From the IMG/VR virus record IMGVR_UViG_2690316148_000006: a stretch of 5,372 bases of DNA, one strand, 5' to 3'. Below the pieces are notes generated by a model. It saw only the letters and a program-made list of their open reading frames with translations, ran no database searches and was not told where the DNA came from. The translations under genes and the position numbers were made by a program. Within the stretch, counting starts at the first letter, position 1; every line of letters begins with the position of its first letter. The stretch is from a virus (lineage: Duplodnaviria > Heunggongvirae > Uroviricota > Caudoviricetes). This document shows positions 142 through 5,372 of this stretch, one piece after another.

Positions 142-528
142 ATGTTTCTGAAACAGGATACGTTTAATTATGAAAAACAGTCCGTGGTGCTCAGTGAGCT
201 GTCCGGGCTGCAGAGAATTGAATATCTGACGTTTGTTCAGCAGCGAACGGCAAAGTTTGATGCACAGGAGGGAGAACTGCCGGAGGCTGAACGACAGATT
301 GCTTTTCTGCGTATGGGAATGGATATCAATGCCTGGCTGGTTTCCCGCTCACTGTGGAATGCTGAGCAGTCTCAGGATGTTGAGACGCTTTGCGCATCCA
401 TTATGACAACATGGTCGTATGATGCGCTGGGCGCGGGGGCGGAGAGGGTTCTGTCGCTGAGCGGTATGGGGACCATTGAGAATGCCGGGGATGATGATCA
501 TGAGGCGCTGACGCCGGAAAAGTCCTGA
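142..528 (+). CDS. G: Tail assembly chaperone (lambda gpG-like)
   Basis: ORF ending at TGA 526..528. The protein begins MFLKQDTFNYEKQSVVLSELSGLQRIEYL, resembling lambda gpG (MFLK...TLSELSALQRIEHL, from memory). GGAG at 132..135 gives a 6-nt spacer to the ATG at 142. The ATG at 139 and the TTG at 124 used by the ORF track are less likely starts; TTG 124 overlaps the terminator T-run. Confidence 0.85.
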   Translation: MFLKQDTFNYEKQSVVLSELSGLQRIEYLTFVQQRTAKFDAQEGELPEAERQIAFLRMGMDINAWLVSRSLWNAEQSQDVETLCASIMTTWSYDALGAGAERVLSLSGMGTIENAGDDDHEALTPEKS

Positions 529-866
529 CGCGGGAAATGCAGTTTGTCATGCGGCTTGCCCGGGAGTTCCGGCGGGCAGACTGGCGGCGGATGCTGTCGG
601 ATATGTCGGCCACTGAGCTTGGTGAGTGGGGCGATTATTTCCGGATGCAGAGCTTCAGTGATGTGTGGATGGATGCGCAGTTTGCCTCGCTGAAGGCATT
701 GATCGTGAGAATGGTGTCCGGCAGCAGCGATGCTGCGGTGGCTGATTTCAGCCTTTTACCGGAAGAGAACGGGATACCGGAGCGAACGGACGAAGAACTG
801 ATGCATCTTGGGGAAGGTATTTCCGGAGGTGTGCGTTATGGACCAGATAGCCAACCTGGTCATTGA
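142..866 (+). CDS. T: Tail assembly chaperone GT fusion made by a programmed -1 ribosomal frameshift near the 3' end of G (lambda gpGT-like)
   Basis: The -1 frame relative to G is closed by TGA at 501..503, opens at 504 and runs to TGA at 864..866. The only window for the shift is therefore 504..526, and it contains the A-rich heptamer GGAAAAG at 516..522. The arrangement matches the conserved G/GT frameshift of lambda-like tail gene clusters. The T-frame portion alone has no plausible independent start; ATG 537 is downstream of the slip site. Confidence 0.7.
516..522 (+). promoter_or_regulatory. Candidate -1 frameshift slippery heptamer G_GAA_AAG (G to GT)
   Basis: Zero-frame codons GAA(517..519) AAG(520..522); -1 codons GGA(516..518) AAA(519..521). 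This is a one-base variant of the lambda heptamer G_GGA_AAG and the only slippery-looking site in the 504..526 window where both frames are open. Confidence 0.55.
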
Positions 867-2839
867 TTTGGGGATTGATGCGGCAGAGTTTAAAAATGAA
901 ATTCCCCGTATCAAAAACCTTCTGAATGGTGCAGCCAGCGATGCAGAACGGTCTTCTGCCCGTATGCAGCGTTTTATGGAGCGTCAGACTCAGGCGGCCC
1001 GGCAGACAATGCAGGCGGCTTCTTCGGCTGCAACAGCAGCATCAGCCCATGCGCAGACGGGTTTGTTCCACCTCACGGGCCATGCGTTCATGAGCCNNNN
1101 NNNNNNNNNNNNNNNNNNNNNNNNNNNNNNNNNNNNNNNNNNNNNNNNNNNNNNNNNNNNNNNNNNNNNNNNNNNNNNNNNNNNNNNNNNNNNNNNNNNN
1201 NNNNNNNNNNNNNNNNNNNNNNNNNNNNNNNNNNNNNNNNNNNNNNNNNNNNNNNNNNNNNNNNNNNNNNNNNNNNNNNNNNNNNNNNNNNNNNNNNNNN
1301 NNNNNNNNNNNNNNNNNNNNNNNNNNNNNNNNNNNNNNNNNNNNNNNNNNNNNNNNNNNNNNNNNNNNNNNNNNNNNNNNNNNNNNNNNNNNNNNNNNNN
1401 NNNNNNNNNNNNNNNNNNNNNNNNGAGGAACAGGCCACCCGGCAGAAAGCGGCGTTTATCCGCCAGCTTAAAGAGCAGGCAACCCGCCAGAATCTGTCGT
1501 CTTCTGAGTTGCTTCGCGCCAGGGCGGCTCAGCTGGGGGTAAGCAGTGCTGCAGAAGTGTATATCCGCAAAATGGAGCGGGCAGGAAAAGCCACACATTC
1601 GCTGGGGCTGAAAAGTGCGGCAGCCCGGCGGGAGCTGGGGGTGTTAATCAGTCAGATGGCGCGCGGCAATTTTGGTGCGCTGAGGGGATCCGGGATAACG
1701 CTGGCTAACCGTGCCGGATGGACAGGCGCACTGATGTCGCCGAAAGGCATGATGACTGGCGGCGTTATTGGCGGACTTGTCGCGGCGGTCCTGGGTCTGG
1801 GTAAAGCCTGGCATGACGGCCGGAAGGAGGGCGAGGAATTTAACCGTCAGCTGGCGCTGACGGGACATTATGCCGGTGTCACTGTCGGGCAGTTGTGGAA
1901 ACTCAGCCGGGCCATATCCGGGAATGGTATCACGCAACATGCGGCAGCCGGTGCGCTGGCACAGGTGGTGGGCAGTGGGGCATTTCATGGAAACGATATT
2001 GGTATGGTGGCGAAAGCTGCCGCACAGATGGAGCGATCGGTTGGCCAGTCGGTCAGCGATACCATAAATCAGTTTAAGCGGCTGAAGGATGATCCTGTAA
2101 ATGCCGCGAAGGCGCTGGACAATGCGCTGCATTTTTTGACTGCCACTCAGCTTGAGCAGATACGCGTCCTTGGGGAGCAGGGGCGGTCCAGTGATGCGGC
2201 CCGGATCGCCATGTCTGCGCTGGCAGAGGAAACCGGTAAACGCACATCTGATATTGATAATAATCTCAATGCGCTGGGTAGTACGCTGCAAACCTTGTCT
2301 GACTGGTGGAAGCAGTTCTGGGATGCGGCCATGAATATTGGTCGTGAAGACTCGCTGGATGCGCAGATTGATGCGTTACAGGAAAAAATTCAGCGCGCGA
2401 AAAAATATCCGTGGACAAACGCCTCCACACAGGTGGAGTACGATCAGCAGCGTCTTAACGATCTTCAGGAGAAAAAACGCCGGAAGGATTTGCAGGATGC
2501 AAAAGCGCAGGCAGAACGGAATTACCAGGAGCAACAGAAACGCCGGAATGCTGAAAATGCCGCGCTGAACCGGATGAATGAAACGGAANNNNNNNNNNNN
2601 NNNNNNNNNNNNNNNNNNNNNNNNNNNNNNNNNNNNNNNNNNNNNNNNNNCAGAAACGCCGGAATGCTGAAAATGCCGCGCTGAACCGGATGAATGAAAC
2701 GGAAGCTGCACGACATCAGCGTGAAAATGAACGTTACGAAAAAGCCATTAAGAAAAATACACGGGCAACCCGTAATGATGAGGCCACCCGGTTATTGCTG
2801 CTGCCAGACAGTCAGCAGGCATTGCCACTGAAAGGATGA
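838..2839 (+). CDS. H: Tail length tape measure protein (lambda gpH-like), N-terminal and central part; interrupted by two N runs and ending at a frame break
   Basis: ATG at 838 with GGAGGT at 826..831 (6-nt spacer). The N-terminus MDQIANLVIDLGIDAAEF resembles lambda gpH (MAEPVGDLVVDLSLDAARF, from memory). After the first N run the protein continues in the +0 phase from 1425 with a Gly/Ala-rich hydrophobic segment (GALRGSGITLANRAGWTGALMSPKGMMTGGVIGGLVAAVLGLG) and coiled-coil-like K/R/E/Q-rich sequence typical of tape measure proteins. After the second N run it continues in phase 2 to TGA at 2837..2839. Phase changes coincide with the N runs. Confidence 0.7.
1097..1424. other. Run of 328 N (assembly gap or masked sequence) inside the tape measure gene
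   Basis: Contiguous N characters. The tape measure frame is phase 1 before the run and phase 0 after it, so either the length is not exact or the hidden sequence contains a frame-changing feature. Confidence 0.95.
2535..2704 (+). repeat. Exact 54-bp direct repeat (2535..2588 and 2651..2704) immediately flanking the second N run
   Basis: CAGAAACGCCGGAATGCTGAAAATGCCGCGCTGAACCGGATGAATGAAACGGAA occurs identically on both sides of the N run. Copy 1 ends at the last base before the Ns and copy 2 starts at the first base after them. Both copies encode QKRRNAENAALNRMNETE in the tape measure reading frame. Confidence 0.8.
2589..2650. other. Run of 62 N (assembly gap or masked sequence) inside the tape measure gene, flanked by identical 54-bp sequences
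   Basis: Contiguous N characters. The frame goes from phase 0 before to phase 2 after; it becomes consistent if the Ns plus one repeat copy (116 nt) are removed. Confidence 0.95.
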
Positions 2840-3936
2840 CTGAAGCGCATAAACAGCTTCTGGCCCTGCAGCAGCGCATCAGCGACCTGGACGGGAAAAA
2901 GCTGACGGCAGATGAAAAGAGTGTGCTGACCCGTAAGAATGAGCTGATTCAGGCGCTGACGCTGCTGGATGTGAAACAGCAGGAGCTGCAGAAACAGACA
3001 GCGCTTAACGACCTGAGAAAAAAAACGGTTCAGCTGACCAGCCAGCTGGCAGACAAAGAACGTGCACTGCGTGAGCAGCACAATCTGGATATTGCCACTG
3101 CAGGTATGGGGGATAAGCAGCGGCAGCGCTACCAGGCACAGTTGCGCATCCGGCAGGAATACCGGCAACAGTTGCAACAGCTTGAGAATGACAGTCGCCA
3201 GAAAGGCACTTACGGGACGGAGGACTACCGGAGGGCTGAGGAGGTGCTGAAGGGGAGCCTGAAGCGACAACTGAATGAAAACAAACGCTACTGGCAGGAA
3301 CTGGAAGTGGCGCAGGGCGACTGGAAAAACGGTGCCATGCGGGCGTTTCAGCATTTTACGGCGGATGCGGATAATGCGGCGGGAACGGCAGAACAGATGT
3401 TTACAGTGGCATTCAGCAGTGCCGGTAATGCACTGGCGACATTCTGTACCACCGGTAAGCTGAATTTTAAATCCTTCACCTCTTCCCTGTTGTCAGATAT
3501 GGCCAGAATTATGGCACAGATGGCCATGATGCAGGCGGTAAAGGGCGTCGGTTCTTTATTCGGCTTCACGACTAATGCTGATGGCGGTGTTTACCAGTCT
3601 GCTGATTTGAGTCGCTACAGTGGCACGGTGGTTAACCGTCCGACGTTTTTTGCTTTTGCAAAAGGCGCGGGTGTGATGGGGGAAGCGGGACCTGAAGCCA
3701 TTCTGCCACTGCGTCGCGGTGCTGATGGTAAGCTGGGGGGTGTGGCGGATACTGGTGGTTCAGGCATGGTGATGTTTGCCCCGCAGTACAACATTGAGAT
3801 CAATAACGATGGCACGAACGGGCAGATAGGTCCGGCTGCCCTGAAGGTGGTTTATGACCTCGGGAAAAAAGCGGCCGCGGACTTTATGCAACAGCAGGCC
3901 CGTGATGGTGGCCGGTTAAGTGGAGCATACCGGTAA
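2836..3936 (+). CDS. H: Tail length tape measure protein (lambda gpH-like), C-terminal part; same gene as 838..2839, either a separate cistron joined by an ATGA overlap or the downstream half of a frameshifted gene
   Basis: A 366-aa ORF whose C-terminus, ...NIEINNDGTNGQIGPAALKVVYDLGKKAAADFMQQQARDGGRLSGAYR*, matches the conserved lambda gpH C-terminus (INNDGTNGQIGPAALKAVYDMARKGARDEIQTQMRDGG, from memory). Its frame is open from 2782. The ATG at 2836..2838 overlaps the upstream TGA at 2837..2839. The stop TAA at 3934..3936 overlaps the M start at 3936. Confidence 0.8.
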   Translation: MTEAHKQLLALQQRISDLDGKKLTADEKSVLTRKNELIQALTLLDVKQQELQKQTALNDLRKKTVQLTSQLADKERALREQHNLDIATAGMGDKQRQRYQAQLRIRQEYRQQLQQLENDSRQKGTYGTEDYRRAEEVLKGSLKRQLNENKRYWQELEVAQGDWKNGAMRAFQHFTADADNAAGTAEQMFTVAFSSAGNALATFCTTGKLNFKSFTSSLLSDMARIMAQMAMMQAVKGVGSLFGFTTNADGGVYQSADLSRYSGTVVNRPTFFAFAKGAGVMGEAGPEAILPLRRGADGKLGGVADTGGSGMVMFAPQYNIEINNDGTNGQIGPAALKVVYDLGKKAAADFMQQQARDGGRLSGAYR

Positions 3937-4265
3937 TGGAGACGTTTCACTGGAAAGTGCGCCCGGATATGAATGTGGTATCAGAGCCGAAAGTGGTGAC
4001 AGTGAAGCTGGGCGATGGTTATGAACAGCGTCGTGCGGCGGGACTGAATAACCAGTTGTCGACTTACAGCGTGACGATACGTGTTCGTAAAGGTGAACAC
4101 CCATTTTTAAAAGCCTTTCTGGAACGGCACGGTGGCGTCCGCGCATTTCAGTGGACGCCACCTTATGACTGGAAGCCGATCAGGGTGGTTTGTCGTAAAT
4201 GGTCGGCAAGCGTGGGGGCGTTGTGGGTAACCATAACGGCAGATTTTGAACAGGTCGTGGCATAG
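3936..4265 (+). CDS. M: Minor tail protein M (lambda gpM-like)
   Basis: A 109-aa ORF, METFHWKVRPDMNVVSEPKVVTVKLGDGYEQR...FQWTPPYDW...ADFEQVVA, closely resembling lambda gpM (MKTFRWKVKPGM...FGDGYSQR...WTPPYEW...AEFEQVVN, from memory). Same size and same position between H and L. The start overlaps the H stop as TAATG. Confidence 0.9.
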   Translation: METFHWKVRPDMNVVSEPKVVTVKLGDGYEQRRAAGLNNQLSTYSVTIRVRKGEHPFLKAFLERHGGVRAFQWTPPYDWKPIRVVCRKWSASVGALWVTITADFEQVVA

Positions 4266-4274
4266 GAGGCTCTG

Positions 4275-4973
4275 ATGCAGGATATTCCACAGGAAACACA
4301 TCATGAGACGACACGCCTCACTCAGTCAGCCCAGGTGGTGCTCTGGGAAATCGATCTGACAGAGGTCGGTGGTGAACGTTATTTTTTCTGTAATGAGCAG
4401 AACGAAAAAGGTGAGCCGGTTACCTGGCAGGGGCGGCAGTATCAGGCATACCCCATTCAGGGGACGGGATTTGAACTGAACGGCAAGGGCAGTGCTGCCC
4501 GTCCGACACTGACGGTTTCTAACCTGCACGGAATGGTCACCGGGATGGCGGAAGACCTGCAGAGTCTGGTCGGCGGAACGGTGGTCAGGCGTAAGGTTTA
4601 CGCCCGTTTTCTGGATGCGGTGAACTTCGTCAACGGAAACAGCGACGCCGATCCGGAACAGGAGGTGATCAGCCGCTGGCGCATCGAGCAGTGCAGCGAA
4701 CTGAGCGCGGTCAGTGCCTCTTTTGTGCTGGCCACACCAACGGAGACGGATGGCGCGGTTTTCCCGGGGCGTATCATGCTGGCGAATACCTGTATGTGGA
4801 CTTACCGTTCTGATGAGTGTGGTTACACGGGCAGGGCAGTGGCTGACGAGTTCGACAAACCAACGACGGATATCCGGAAGGACAAATGCAGCAAGTGTAT
4901 GCGCGGGTGTGAGTTGCGCAACAATACCGGTAATTTCGGCGGTTTCCTTTCCATCAATAAACTTTCTCAGTAA
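4275..4973 (+). CDS. L: Minor tail protein L (lambda gpL-like); C-terminal Cys cluster consistent with an Fe-S binding domain
   Basis: A 232-aa ORF with AGGAGG at 4264..4269 and a 5-nt spacer to the ATG at 4275. It begins MQDI and contains VVLWEIDLTEVGGERYFFCNEQNEKGEPVTWQGRQYQ and ...FGGFLSINKLSQ, matching lambda gpL over nearly its whole length as I recall it. Conserved cysteines lie in ...LANTCMWTYRSDECGYTG...KDKCSKCMRGC... Confidence 0.92.
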   Translation: MQDIPQETHHETTRLTQSAQVVLWEIDLTEVGGERYFFCNEQNEKGEPVTWQGRQYQAYPIQGTGFELNGKGSAARPTLTVSNLHGMVTGMAEDLQSLVGGTVVRRKVYARFLDAVNFVNGNSDADPEQEVISRWRIEQCSELSAVSASFVLATPTETDGAVFPGRIMLANTCMWTYRSDECGYTGRAVADEFDKPTTDIRKDKCSKCMRGCELRNNTGNFGGFLSINKLSQ

Positions 4974-4977
4974 ATCC

Positions 4978-5372
4978 ATGACACAGACAGAATCAGCGAT
5001 TCTGGCGCACGCCCGGCGATGTGCGCCAGCGGAGTCGTGTGGCTTCGTGGTGAGAACGCCGGAGGGAGACAGGTATCTTCCCAGCGAGAATATCTCCGGT
5101 GAGCCGGAGGAACGGTTCCGGATGGCTCCGGAGGACTGGCTGCGGGCACAAATGCAGGGTGAGATTGTGGCGCTGGTCCACAGTCATCCCGGTGGTCTGC
5201 CCTGGCTGAGTGAGGCTGACCGGCGGCTGCAGGTGCAGAGTGATTTGCCGTGGTGGCTGGTCTGCCGGGGGGCGATTCACAAGTTCCGCTGTGTGCCACA
5301 TCTTACCGGGCGGCGCTTTGAGCACGGGGTGACGGACTGTTACACGCTGTTCCGGGATGCTTATCATCTGGC
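4978..5372 (+). CDS. K: Tail assembly protein K (lambda gpK-like), N-terminal MPN/JAMM domain; 3'-truncated by the window
   Basis: ATG at 4978, 4 nt after the L stop (4971..4973), open to the window end. Translation MTQTESAILAHARRCAPAESCGFVV...EIVALVHSHPGGLPWLSEADRRLQVQSDLPWWLVC...RRFEHGVTDCYTLFRDAYHL closely resembles lambda gpK. It contains a JAMM-type H-x-H-x7-S-x2-D motif (HSHPGGLPWLSEAD, nt 5179..5220). The ORF is absent from the supplied track, presumably because it has no stop inside the window. Confidence 0.9.
   Translation, partial: MTQTESAILAHARRCAPAESCGFVVRTPEGDRYLPSENISGEPEERFRMAPEDWLRAQMQGEIVALVHSHPGGLPWLSEADRRLQVQSDLPWWLVCRGAIHKFRCVPHLTGRRFEHGVTDCYTLFRDAYHL

What the first reader, a model, noticed from the sequence alone, without database searches (positions are those of the whole stretch)
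2535..2704. Identical 54-bp sequences on both sides of the 62-N run: probable contig-overlap artifact, alternatively a true tandem duplication in the tape measure
The 54-bp match ends exactly at the N boundary on the left and begins exactly at it on the right. This is the signature of two de Bruijn-graph contigs sharing a k-1 overlap (k=55) that a scaffolder joined with a gap instead of merging. Deleting the Ns plus one copy (116 nt) restores a single continuous tape measure frame, which supports that reading. If the duplication is real, it adds a repeat block to the tape measure, and tape measure length is known to set tail length in lambda-like phages.
Basis: partly seen in the sequence, partly recalled or inferred. 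Interest (0 to 1): 0.45.

Follow-up and report, generated by a model that had tools for sequence, protein, structure and literature searches.

The report
Scaffold-gap artefact in a prophage gene
The identical 54-base sequences on either side of the run of Ns are almost certainly two overlapping contig ends that a scaffolder joined with a gap. They are not a real duplication in the phage tail tape measure gene, so the finding is an ordinary assembly artefact.

Summary
An exact 54-nt sequence lies at 2535..2588 and again at 2651..2704, touching both edges of the 62-N run at 2589..2650. The window is the whole deposited draft scaffold CXDF01000214.1 (GCA_001253095.1), so the Ns belong to the public record.

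The gene is a lambda-type tail tape measure gene, in the order G-T-H-M-L-K. Seven independent contiguous assemblies of the same allele, from at least three pipelines including unscaffolded Logan contigs, carry the 54-mer once. Deleting 2589..2704 (116 nt) makes the window colinear with them: 3832 nt, no gaps, 1-3 mismatches. Four complete-genome loci and 24 IMG/VR contigs never show two copies. As scaffolded, the repeat period of 116 breaks the reading frame.

So the artefact reading holds (about 0.9). The k=55 detail cannot be tested.

One correction: merging restores the frame only locally. The gene is a real pseudogene. This lineage has a 66-bp in-frame deletion and a 43-bp frameshifting deletion, which puts a stop at 2837..2839. 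A second gap (1097..1424) also interrupts the gene. Interest is low.

The parts
2535..2588 (+). Left copy of the 54-mer; the 3' end of the left contig piece (1425..2588)
   Evidence: 1425..2588 is 100% identical to sister contigs L005/L006/L007 and to complete genome L001
2589..2650 (.). 62-N scaffold gap that stands for no real sequence (true distance about -54 nt)
   Evidence: the Ns are in the deposited record (L014 is identical to the window)
2651..2704 (+). Right copy of the 54-mer; the 5' end of the right contig piece (2651..5372)
   Evidence: 2651..5372 is 99.9-100% identical to sister contigs
838..2839 (+). N-terminal part of the lambda-type tape measure gene (gpH-like) as scaffolded. 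It is interrupted by both N runs and ends at a premature stop, TGA 2837..2839. The contiguous sister version encodes 611 aa.
   Evidence: Pfam TMP_2, E 1.9e-46; annotation in complete genomes
2836..3936 (+). C-terminal part of the tape measure gene as a separate 366-aa ORF. Its ATG overlaps the premature stop (ATGA).
   Evidence: (Tape_meas_lam_C, TMP_4)
2717..2722 (+). Junction (2721|2722) of a real 66-bp in-frame deletion relative to the full-length 3042-bp alleles; microhomology CAGCG
   Evidence: the same junction is found in 4 IMG/VR contigs and in several NCBI and Logan contigs
2794..2802 (+). Junction (2801|2802) of a real 43-bp frameshifting deletion; microhomology ATTGCTGC
1097..1424 (.). 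Second scaffold gap (328 N) in the same gene. With the 36-nt fold-back it occupies 364 nt, where sister contigs have 314 nt.
1061..1096 (+). Fold-back at a contig end: the reverse complement of the sequence lying 16-52 nt further on in sister contigs. The turn is at an imperfect 14-nt inverted repeat (1047..1060).
142..528 (+). Tail assembly chaperone G
537..866 (+). Tail assembly protein T reading frame
3936..4265 (+). Minor tail protein M
4275..4973 (+). Minor tail protein L
4978..5372 (+). Start of the K-like (JAB/NlpC) tail protein, cut by the scaffold end

Best explanation
The two 54-nt copies are the same stretch of genome written twice. The left piece (1425..2588) and the right piece (2651..5372) of this short-read draft scaffold (CXDF01000214.1) overlap by 54 nt. 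A scaffolder that relied on read-pair distances placed them 62 nt apart, filled the space with Ns, and the overlap was never merged. The true sequence is the window with 2589..2704 removed.

Shown: the flanks are identical, and the merged sequence is perfectly colinear with independent assemblies.

Inferred: how the artefact arose. One route is graph-adjacent contigs sharing k-1 = 54 nt (k = 55). The other is extension from both gap edges by a gap filler such as GapFiller, which closes a gap only if the inserted length is within 50 nt of the estimate. Here the estimate was 116 nt too long.

The locus is hard to assemble because this lineage carries at least two nearly identical lambdoid tail modules. 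Their tape measure genes are identical upstream of this point and differ just downstream of it.
For:: exact 54-nt suffix/prefix identity abutting the N run.

seven independent contiguous assemblies carry the same allele (both lineage-specific deletions, 99.8-100% identity) with the 54-mer once. They are CXDB01000145.1, CXAQ01000042.1, CXDG01000205.1, AAURZM010000134.1, IMG 2671180603, and Logan ERR1009120 and ERR5975928; the Logan contigs are unscaffolded. The merged window aligns to L005 as one block of 3832 nt with 0 gaps and 1 mismatch.

four loci from complete E. coli genomes and 24 IMG/VR contigs containing the core of the 54-mer never have two copies; no IMG/VR contig has the end and the start of the 54-mer 45-75 nt apart; the full-length allele has no native tandem repeat of this size.

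as scaffolded, the period is 116 nt, which is not a multiple of 3 and puts the right copy out of frame. Merging keeps the frame.

sister scaffold FTXS01000033.1 shows the same kind of error at the same place. It has the full-length allele, then 14 N, then the deletion allele restarting 40 nt before the 54-mer. This proves that two paralogous alleles exist in the lineage.

the other gap in the window is also mis-sized (+50 nt) and has a fold-back end, so the scaffold is unreliable in this gene.

a published high-throughput pipeline (Velvet, SSPACE, GapFiller) creates N gaps from read pairs. GapFiller extends both edges and refuses closure when the size deviates by more than 50 nt.
Against: There is no read-level or assembly-graph evidence for this isolate.

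A gap estimate of +62 where the true value would be -54 is an error of 116 nt. That is larger than the roughly 40-50 nt errors seen at the other gaps.

I could not explain why the break lies exactly at this 54-mer. The fork between the two known alleles lies 17 nt further 3'. No relative diverges exactly at the 54-mer's edges.

I could not verify which assembler produced the record (one search found no paper).

The region is prone to slippage, with four different deletions at short direct repeats among relatives. A private duplication is therefore not mechanistically absurd.
Confidence: 0.9

Rival explanations
1. This isolate has a real, private tandem duplication of about 116 nt in the tape measure pseudogene. 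The Ns stand for the first copy of the 62 nt or so that follow the 54-mer.
For: The scaffolder's gap estimate is positive (+62) rather than zero or negative. A de Bruijn graph with k=55 would end the upstream contig at the first shared 54-nt vertex. The region is slippage-prone, with deletions of 63, 66, 43 and 46 bp at short direct repeats in relatives. The gene is already a pseudogene, so an out-of-frame duplication would not be selected against.
Against: None of seven near-identical sister assemblies, four complete-genome loci or 24 IMG/VR contigs has the duplication. With a true tandem repeat, the right contig should break about 62 nt after the 54-mer, where the repeat exits. Instead it runs on unbroken for 2.7 kb (my own inference from graph logic). 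I saw no short direct repeat at the end points a 116-nt unit would need (my reading of the sequence; no dedicated test).
Confidence: 0.06
2. Both copies are real but lie in two different prophages. The left piece is a collapsed repeat shared by two paralogous tail modules, and the scaffold links pieces that may belong to different chromosomal loci. This is a variant of the artefact reading, not exclusive of it: there is still no tandem duplication.
For:: sister scaffold L009 joins a full-length allele and a deletion allele across a 14-N gap, and all three of its gaps have duplicated flanks; close complete genomes carry 3-6 related tape measure loci. The left piece is 100% identical both to full-length alleles (L001) and to deletion-allele contigs. 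The right piece matches no single complete-genome prophage better than 97.7%, while the left matches at 100%.
Against: In the sister assemblies the deletion allele has exactly this upstream sequence on the same contig. The join as merged therefore exists in the lineage whether or not the left piece is collapsed. The other contigs of this assembly and the read depth could not be inspected.
Confidence: 0.25
3. Real foreign sequence, such as an insertion, lies between the two copies, and the 54 nt is a target duplication.
For: In another isolate (CXCY01000183.1, L008/L017) an IS600 end abuts position 40 of the 54-mer, so this spot can take an insertion.
Against: From established knowledge of insertion sequences, target duplications are a few bases long (3 bp for the IS3 family), not 54. 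IS600 is about 1.3 kb, not about 62 nt. Contigs broken by an insertion sequence would end in insertion-sequence DNA, not in the full 54-mer on both sides.
Confidence: 0.02

Closest known systems
Unmerged overlapping contig ends around a scaffold gap ('negative gap') in short-read drafts built with a paired-end scaffolder and gap filler such as SSPACE and GapFiller
   Same: Identical sequence abuts both edges of an N run whose length is an estimate. Removing the Ns plus one copy reproduces the sequence of independent assemblies. GapFiller's published rule, that a gap is not closed when the size deviates by more than 50 nt (PMC3446322), fits the 116-nt discrepancy. Sister records carry single-N and variable-length N runs, which are typical of estimated gaps.
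   Different: The software used for this record is not known to me. The overlap length of 54 would also fit a plain k-1 overlap at k=55. Why the contigs broke at exactly this point is unexplained.
Bacteriophage lambda gpH tail tape measure gene in a lambdoid prophage tail module (G, T, H, M, L, K)
   Same: Pfam TMP_2, TMP_4 and Tape_meas_lam_C hits, flanked by Phage_TAC_2 (G), Phage_tail_T, Phage_min_tail (M) and Phage_tail_L. The left part is 100% identical at the DNA level to annotated tape measure genes of complete E. coli genomes.
   Different: The gene is not intact. Compared with the 3042-bp (1013-aa) alleles it has a 66-bp in-frame deletion and a 43-bp frameshifting deletion, which split it into 611-aa and 366-aa ORFs in the contiguous sister contigs.
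Natural length variants of tape measure proteins (internal duplications or deletions that change tail length; established for lambda gpH from the literature, as I recall it)
   Same: The relatives do show in-frame length variants in this coiled-coil stretch: the 66-bp deletion here and a 63-bp deletion in IMG/VR contig L029.
   Different: The feature reported, a duplication, is not one of these variants. It is an assembly artefact, and the gene here is frameshifted, so no tail length can be inferred.

Membership tests
Scaffold-gap artefact (overlapping contig ends) | The same sequence ends exactly at the left edge of the N run and starts exactly at its right edge | tested here: met
   54-nt exact suffix/prefix identity at 2535..2588 and 2651..2704
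Scaffold-gap artefact (overlapping contig ends) | Removing the Ns plus one copy gives a sequence colinear with independent assemblies of the same allele | tested here: met
   3832-nt gap-free alignment with 1-3 mismatches to three of the seven independent assemblies (CXDB, CXAQ, AAURZM), and with 9 mismatches to a fourth (CXDG); the other three cover only part of that span.
Scaffold-gap artefact (overlapping contig ends) | The N run is part of a deposited scaffold, not a mask applied later | tested here: met
   NCBI record CXDF01000214.1 (L014) is identical to the window, Ns included. N-run lengths do not match the lengths of the homologous sequence.
Scaffold-gap artefact (overlapping contig ends) | Reads or the assembly graph of this isolate show one continuous path through the 54-mer | not testable with these tools
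   Reads and the graph are not available.
True tandem duplication in a tape measure gene | Two copies on one molecule with real sequence between them | not testable with these tools
   The spacer is only Ns.
True tandem duplication in a tape measure gene | The duplication is present in related genomes, or a repeat of this period exists in the family | tested here: not met
   one copy at most everywhere, and no tandem repeat of this size in the full-length allele
True tandem duplication in a tape measure gene | The period keeps the reading frame | tested here: not met
   the period of 116 nt puts the right copy out of frame, with a stop after 10 codons. This test is weak, because the gap length is an estimate and the gene is a pseudogene anyway.
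Lambda-type tail tape measure gene (gpH) | Family domains and the position between the G/T chaperones and M/L | tested here: met
Lambda-type tail tape measure gene (gpH) | One intact reading frame | tested here: not met
   a 43-bp deletion shifts the frame and gives a stop at 2837..2839. The same is seen in the contiguous sister contigs.

The most novel reading that the evidence does not exclude
The duplication is real. In this reading the isolate carries a private tandem duplication of about 116 nt in a slippage-prone coiled-coil stretch of an already frameshifted prophage tape measure gene. That would add a duplication to the four microhomology-flanked deletions seen among relatives.
Probability: 0.06. 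Interest if true: 0.12.

Novelty: not a real feature. Interest (0 to 1): 0.04.

Why it matters
The biological importance is small. The practical point is that CXDF01000214.1 should not be read as evidence for a tape measure duplication or an altered tail length, and 2589..2704 should be collapsed before annotation. The real biology at the locus is modest. It is a decaying lambdoid prophage whose tape measure gene lost 66 bp and 43 bp at short direct repeats. It sits in a lineage that carries at least two near-identical tail modules, which is why short-read assemblies repeatedly fail here.

Tried and rejected
(1) I tested whether the Ns are a mask applied by the data provider. They are not: the NCBI record is identical including the Ns, and the N-run lengths do not equal the homologous lengths.

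(2) I looked for the window's allele in RefSeq complete E. coli genomes and in GTDB species representatives. No complete genome has the deletion allele, and genome contigs had no hit for the deletion junction. The allele was found only in IMG/VR, NCBI drafts and Logan.

(3) I searched IMG/VR for any contig with the end and the start of the 54-mer 45-75 nt apart, and for the window's own fold-back junction. Both gave no hits.

(4) I tried to explain the break point by a fork between paralogs. The full-length/deletion fork lies 17 nt 3' of the 54-mer. The L029-type 63-bp deletion ends 3 nt inside it. A G variant at position 53 of the 54-mer is 2 nt off. None fits exactly.

(5) The scaffold spacing differs by only 7 nt from the full-length paralog (116 minus 109). 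I considered whether the gap estimate came from read pairs of that paralog. It is numerically suggestive, but I could not make it mechanistically consistent, so it is left unexplained (note 2).

(6) I tried to identify the project and pipeline from the accessions in the literature and found nothing. Attribution to a Velvet/SSPACE/GapFiller pipeline rests only on my memory of similar batch submissions and on the style of the N runs.

(7) An IS600 target duplication was rejected on size.

Full report
**Observation**

The window has two N runs: 1097..1424 (328 N) and 2589..2650 (62 N). For the second run, the longest suffix of the left flank that equals the prefix of the right flank is exactly 54 nt. 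The sequence is CAGAAACGCCGGAATGCTGAAAATGCCGCGCTGAACCGGATGAATGAAACGGAA, at 2535..2588 and 2651..2704. It occurs nowhere else in the window.

**What the region is**

The window is a lambdoid tail module.
- Chaperone G lies at 142..528 and the T frame at 537..866.
- A tape measure gene starts at 838.
- M lies at 3936..4265, L at 4275..4973, and the start of a K-like protein at 4978.
- Pfam hits: Phage_TAC_2, Phage_tail_T, TMP_2, TMP_4, Tape_meas_lam_C, Phage_min_tail and Phage_tail_L.
- The same order is annotated in complete E. coli genomes that are 100% identical over 1425..2588.

An exact protein look-up showed that the window is the entire NCBI draft scaffold CXDF01000214.1 of assembly GCA_001253095.1. 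It is identical base for base, including the Ns. The Ns are therefore scaffold gaps in a deposited short-read draft, not a mask.

**Comparison with complete genomes**

Four tape measure loci come from complete genomes: CFSAN029787 (two loci), O121 201805972 and FDAARGOS_944. Each has the 54-mer once, followed directly by GCTGCACGACATCAGCG.

These comparisons also showed that the window's right piece differs from the full-length 3042-bp allele by two deletions.
- A 66-bp in-frame deletion has its junction at 2721|2722 and is flanked by CAGCG.
- A 43-bp frameshifting deletion has its junction at 2801|2802 and is flanked by ATTGCTGC.

**Comparison with the same allele elsewhere**

I searched for the 66-bp deletion junction and then for the exact 366-aa C-terminal ORF. 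This found the same double-deletion allele in other assemblies. Seven of them are independent and contiguous across the site:
- CXDB01000145.1
- CXAQ01000042.1
- CXDG01000205.1
- AAURZM010000134.1
- an IMG genome (2671180603)
- two unscaffolded Logan assemblies (ERR1009120, ERR5975928)

All seven have the 54-mer once. When 2589..2704 is deleted from the window, positions 1425 to the end align to these contigs as a single block. That block is 3832 nt with no gaps and 1-3 mismatches to three of them (CXDB, CXAQ, AAURZM) and 9 to a fourth (CXDG); the shorter Logan pieces are 99.97-100% identical.

Both deletions are therefore real features of the lineage. The 116 extra bases are peculiar to this one scaffold.

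Further checks agree.
- Twenty-four IMG/VR contigs that contain the core of the 54-mer have it once at most.
- No IMG/VR contig has the end and the start of the 54-mer 45-75 nt apart.
- The full-length allele has no native tandem repeat of this size.
- As scaffolded, the period of 116 puts the second copy out of frame.

**Why the locus misassembles**

Close complete genomes carry three to six related tape measure loci. The sister scaffold FTXS01000033.1 (L009) shows both alleles directly. It runs through the 54-mer into the full-length allele, has 14 Ns, and then restarts 40 nt before the 54-mer and continues into the deletion allele. Its other gaps also have duplicated flanks.

The lineage therefore holds at least two tail modules. 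They are identical for more than 1 kb upstream of this point and diverge 17 nt after the 54-mer.

The window's other gap is also unreliable. Positions 1061..1096 are a fold-back, the reverse complement of the sequence that lies just ahead in the sister contigs. The turn is at an imperfect 14-nt inverted repeat. The gap is 50 nt too long.

**Mechanism**

What is shown: the two flanks are the same genomic stretch.

What is inferred: how the artefact arose.
- It fits equally well the behaviour of an edge-extending gap filler. GapFiller extends both edges and closes a gap only if the extensions overlap and the inserted length is within 50 nt of the estimate (PMC3446322).
- A published high-throughput pipeline uses Velvet, SSPACE and GapFiller in this way and discards contigs shorter than the fragment size (PMC5320598). 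I could not verify that it produced this record.

Two points remain unexplained. The first is why the break lies exactly at this 54-mer rather than at the allele fork 17 nt downstream. The second is why the gap was overestimated by 116 nt. The resulting scaffold spacing differs by only 7 nt from that of the full-length paralog (116 minus 109), which may or may not be a coincidence.

**Rivals**

A private tandem duplication cannot be excluded without reads. The positive gap estimate and the slippage-prone context speak for it: deletions of 63, 66, 43 and 46 bp at short direct repeats occur among relatives. Against it are its absence from every relative and the unbroken right contig. I give it about 0.06.

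A variant of the artefact reading is that the left piece is a collapsed repeat shared by two prophages. This is likely in part (about 0.25) and does not change the conclusion.

An insertion with a 54-nt target duplication is rejected on size. Another isolate does have an IS600 end inside the 54-mer.

Merging restores the frame only across the junction. The gene remains split by the 43-bp deletion, with a stop at 2837..2839 and a downstream ORF at 2836..3936. It is also interrupted by gap 1. It is a prophage pseudogene, so the tail-length consequence does not arise.

**Verdict**

This is an assembly artefact in a public draft scaffold. It is not a real feature, and its interest is very low.

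Noticed in passing
window 1047..1424: Just left of the 328-N gap, 1061..1096 is the reverse complement of the sequence that sister contig L005 has at 1077..1112. The turn is at an imperfect 14-nt inverted repeat (CCATGCGCAGACGG). It is either a fold-back contig end or a 52-nt flip. The fold-back plus the gap occupies 364 nt where sister contigs have 314 nt.
   Followed up: partly
window 2717..2722 and 2794..2802; L001 5182..5247 and 5328..5370: The tape measure gene of this lineage carries two real deletions at short direct repeats: 66 bp in frame (CAGCG) and 43 bp frameshifting (ATTGCTGC). The premature TGA at 2837..2839 overlaps the ATG of the downstream 366-aa ORF (ATGA). At least eight assemblies share this allele.
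   Followed up: yes
L002 about 5331..5341 (E. coli O121 201805972); L029 (IMGVR_UViG_2526164651_000008); window 2475 and 2538: The same coiled-coil stretch has independent deletions in other genomes. One is 46 bp between ACAGTCAGCAG repeats (annotated as frameshifted). Another is 63 bp between AAACGCCGGAA repeats, whose second copy lies inside the 54-mer. This looks like a slippage hot spot.
   Followed up: partly
L009 2349..2886, 5122, 6166..6209 (FTXS01000033.1): This sister scaffold interleaves two paralogous tail modules. It runs from the full-length tape measure allele, through 14 N, to the deletion allele restarting 111 nt before the allele fork. Its other two gaps also have duplicated flanks.
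   Followed up: partly
L008 end / L017 1..47 (CXCY01000183.1): The terminal 32 nt of an IS600 (IS3-family) element abut position 40 of the 54-mer, so another isolate has an insertion sequence inside this stretch. The 32-mer occurs up to 43 times per E. coli genome. At the one locus inspected (E. coli SK1144) it lies just upstream of a truncated transposase gene, which an IS30 separates from a partial IS600-family transposase. The deletion allele is absent from all complete E. coli genomes searched. I suspect a Shigella-like host, but this is not verified.
   Followed up: partly
window 4256..4320: The M/L gene junction is locally very different from the closest complete-genome prophages, with clustered mismatches and small indels, while the flanks are 97-98% identical. 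This looks like a mosaic boundary.
   Followed up: no
L005/L011 5207..7341: In sister contig CXDB01000145.1 the sequence beyond the window's end leads into a second, 88%-identical copy of the M-L region. This suggests tandem or nested tail-module remnants.
   Followed up: no
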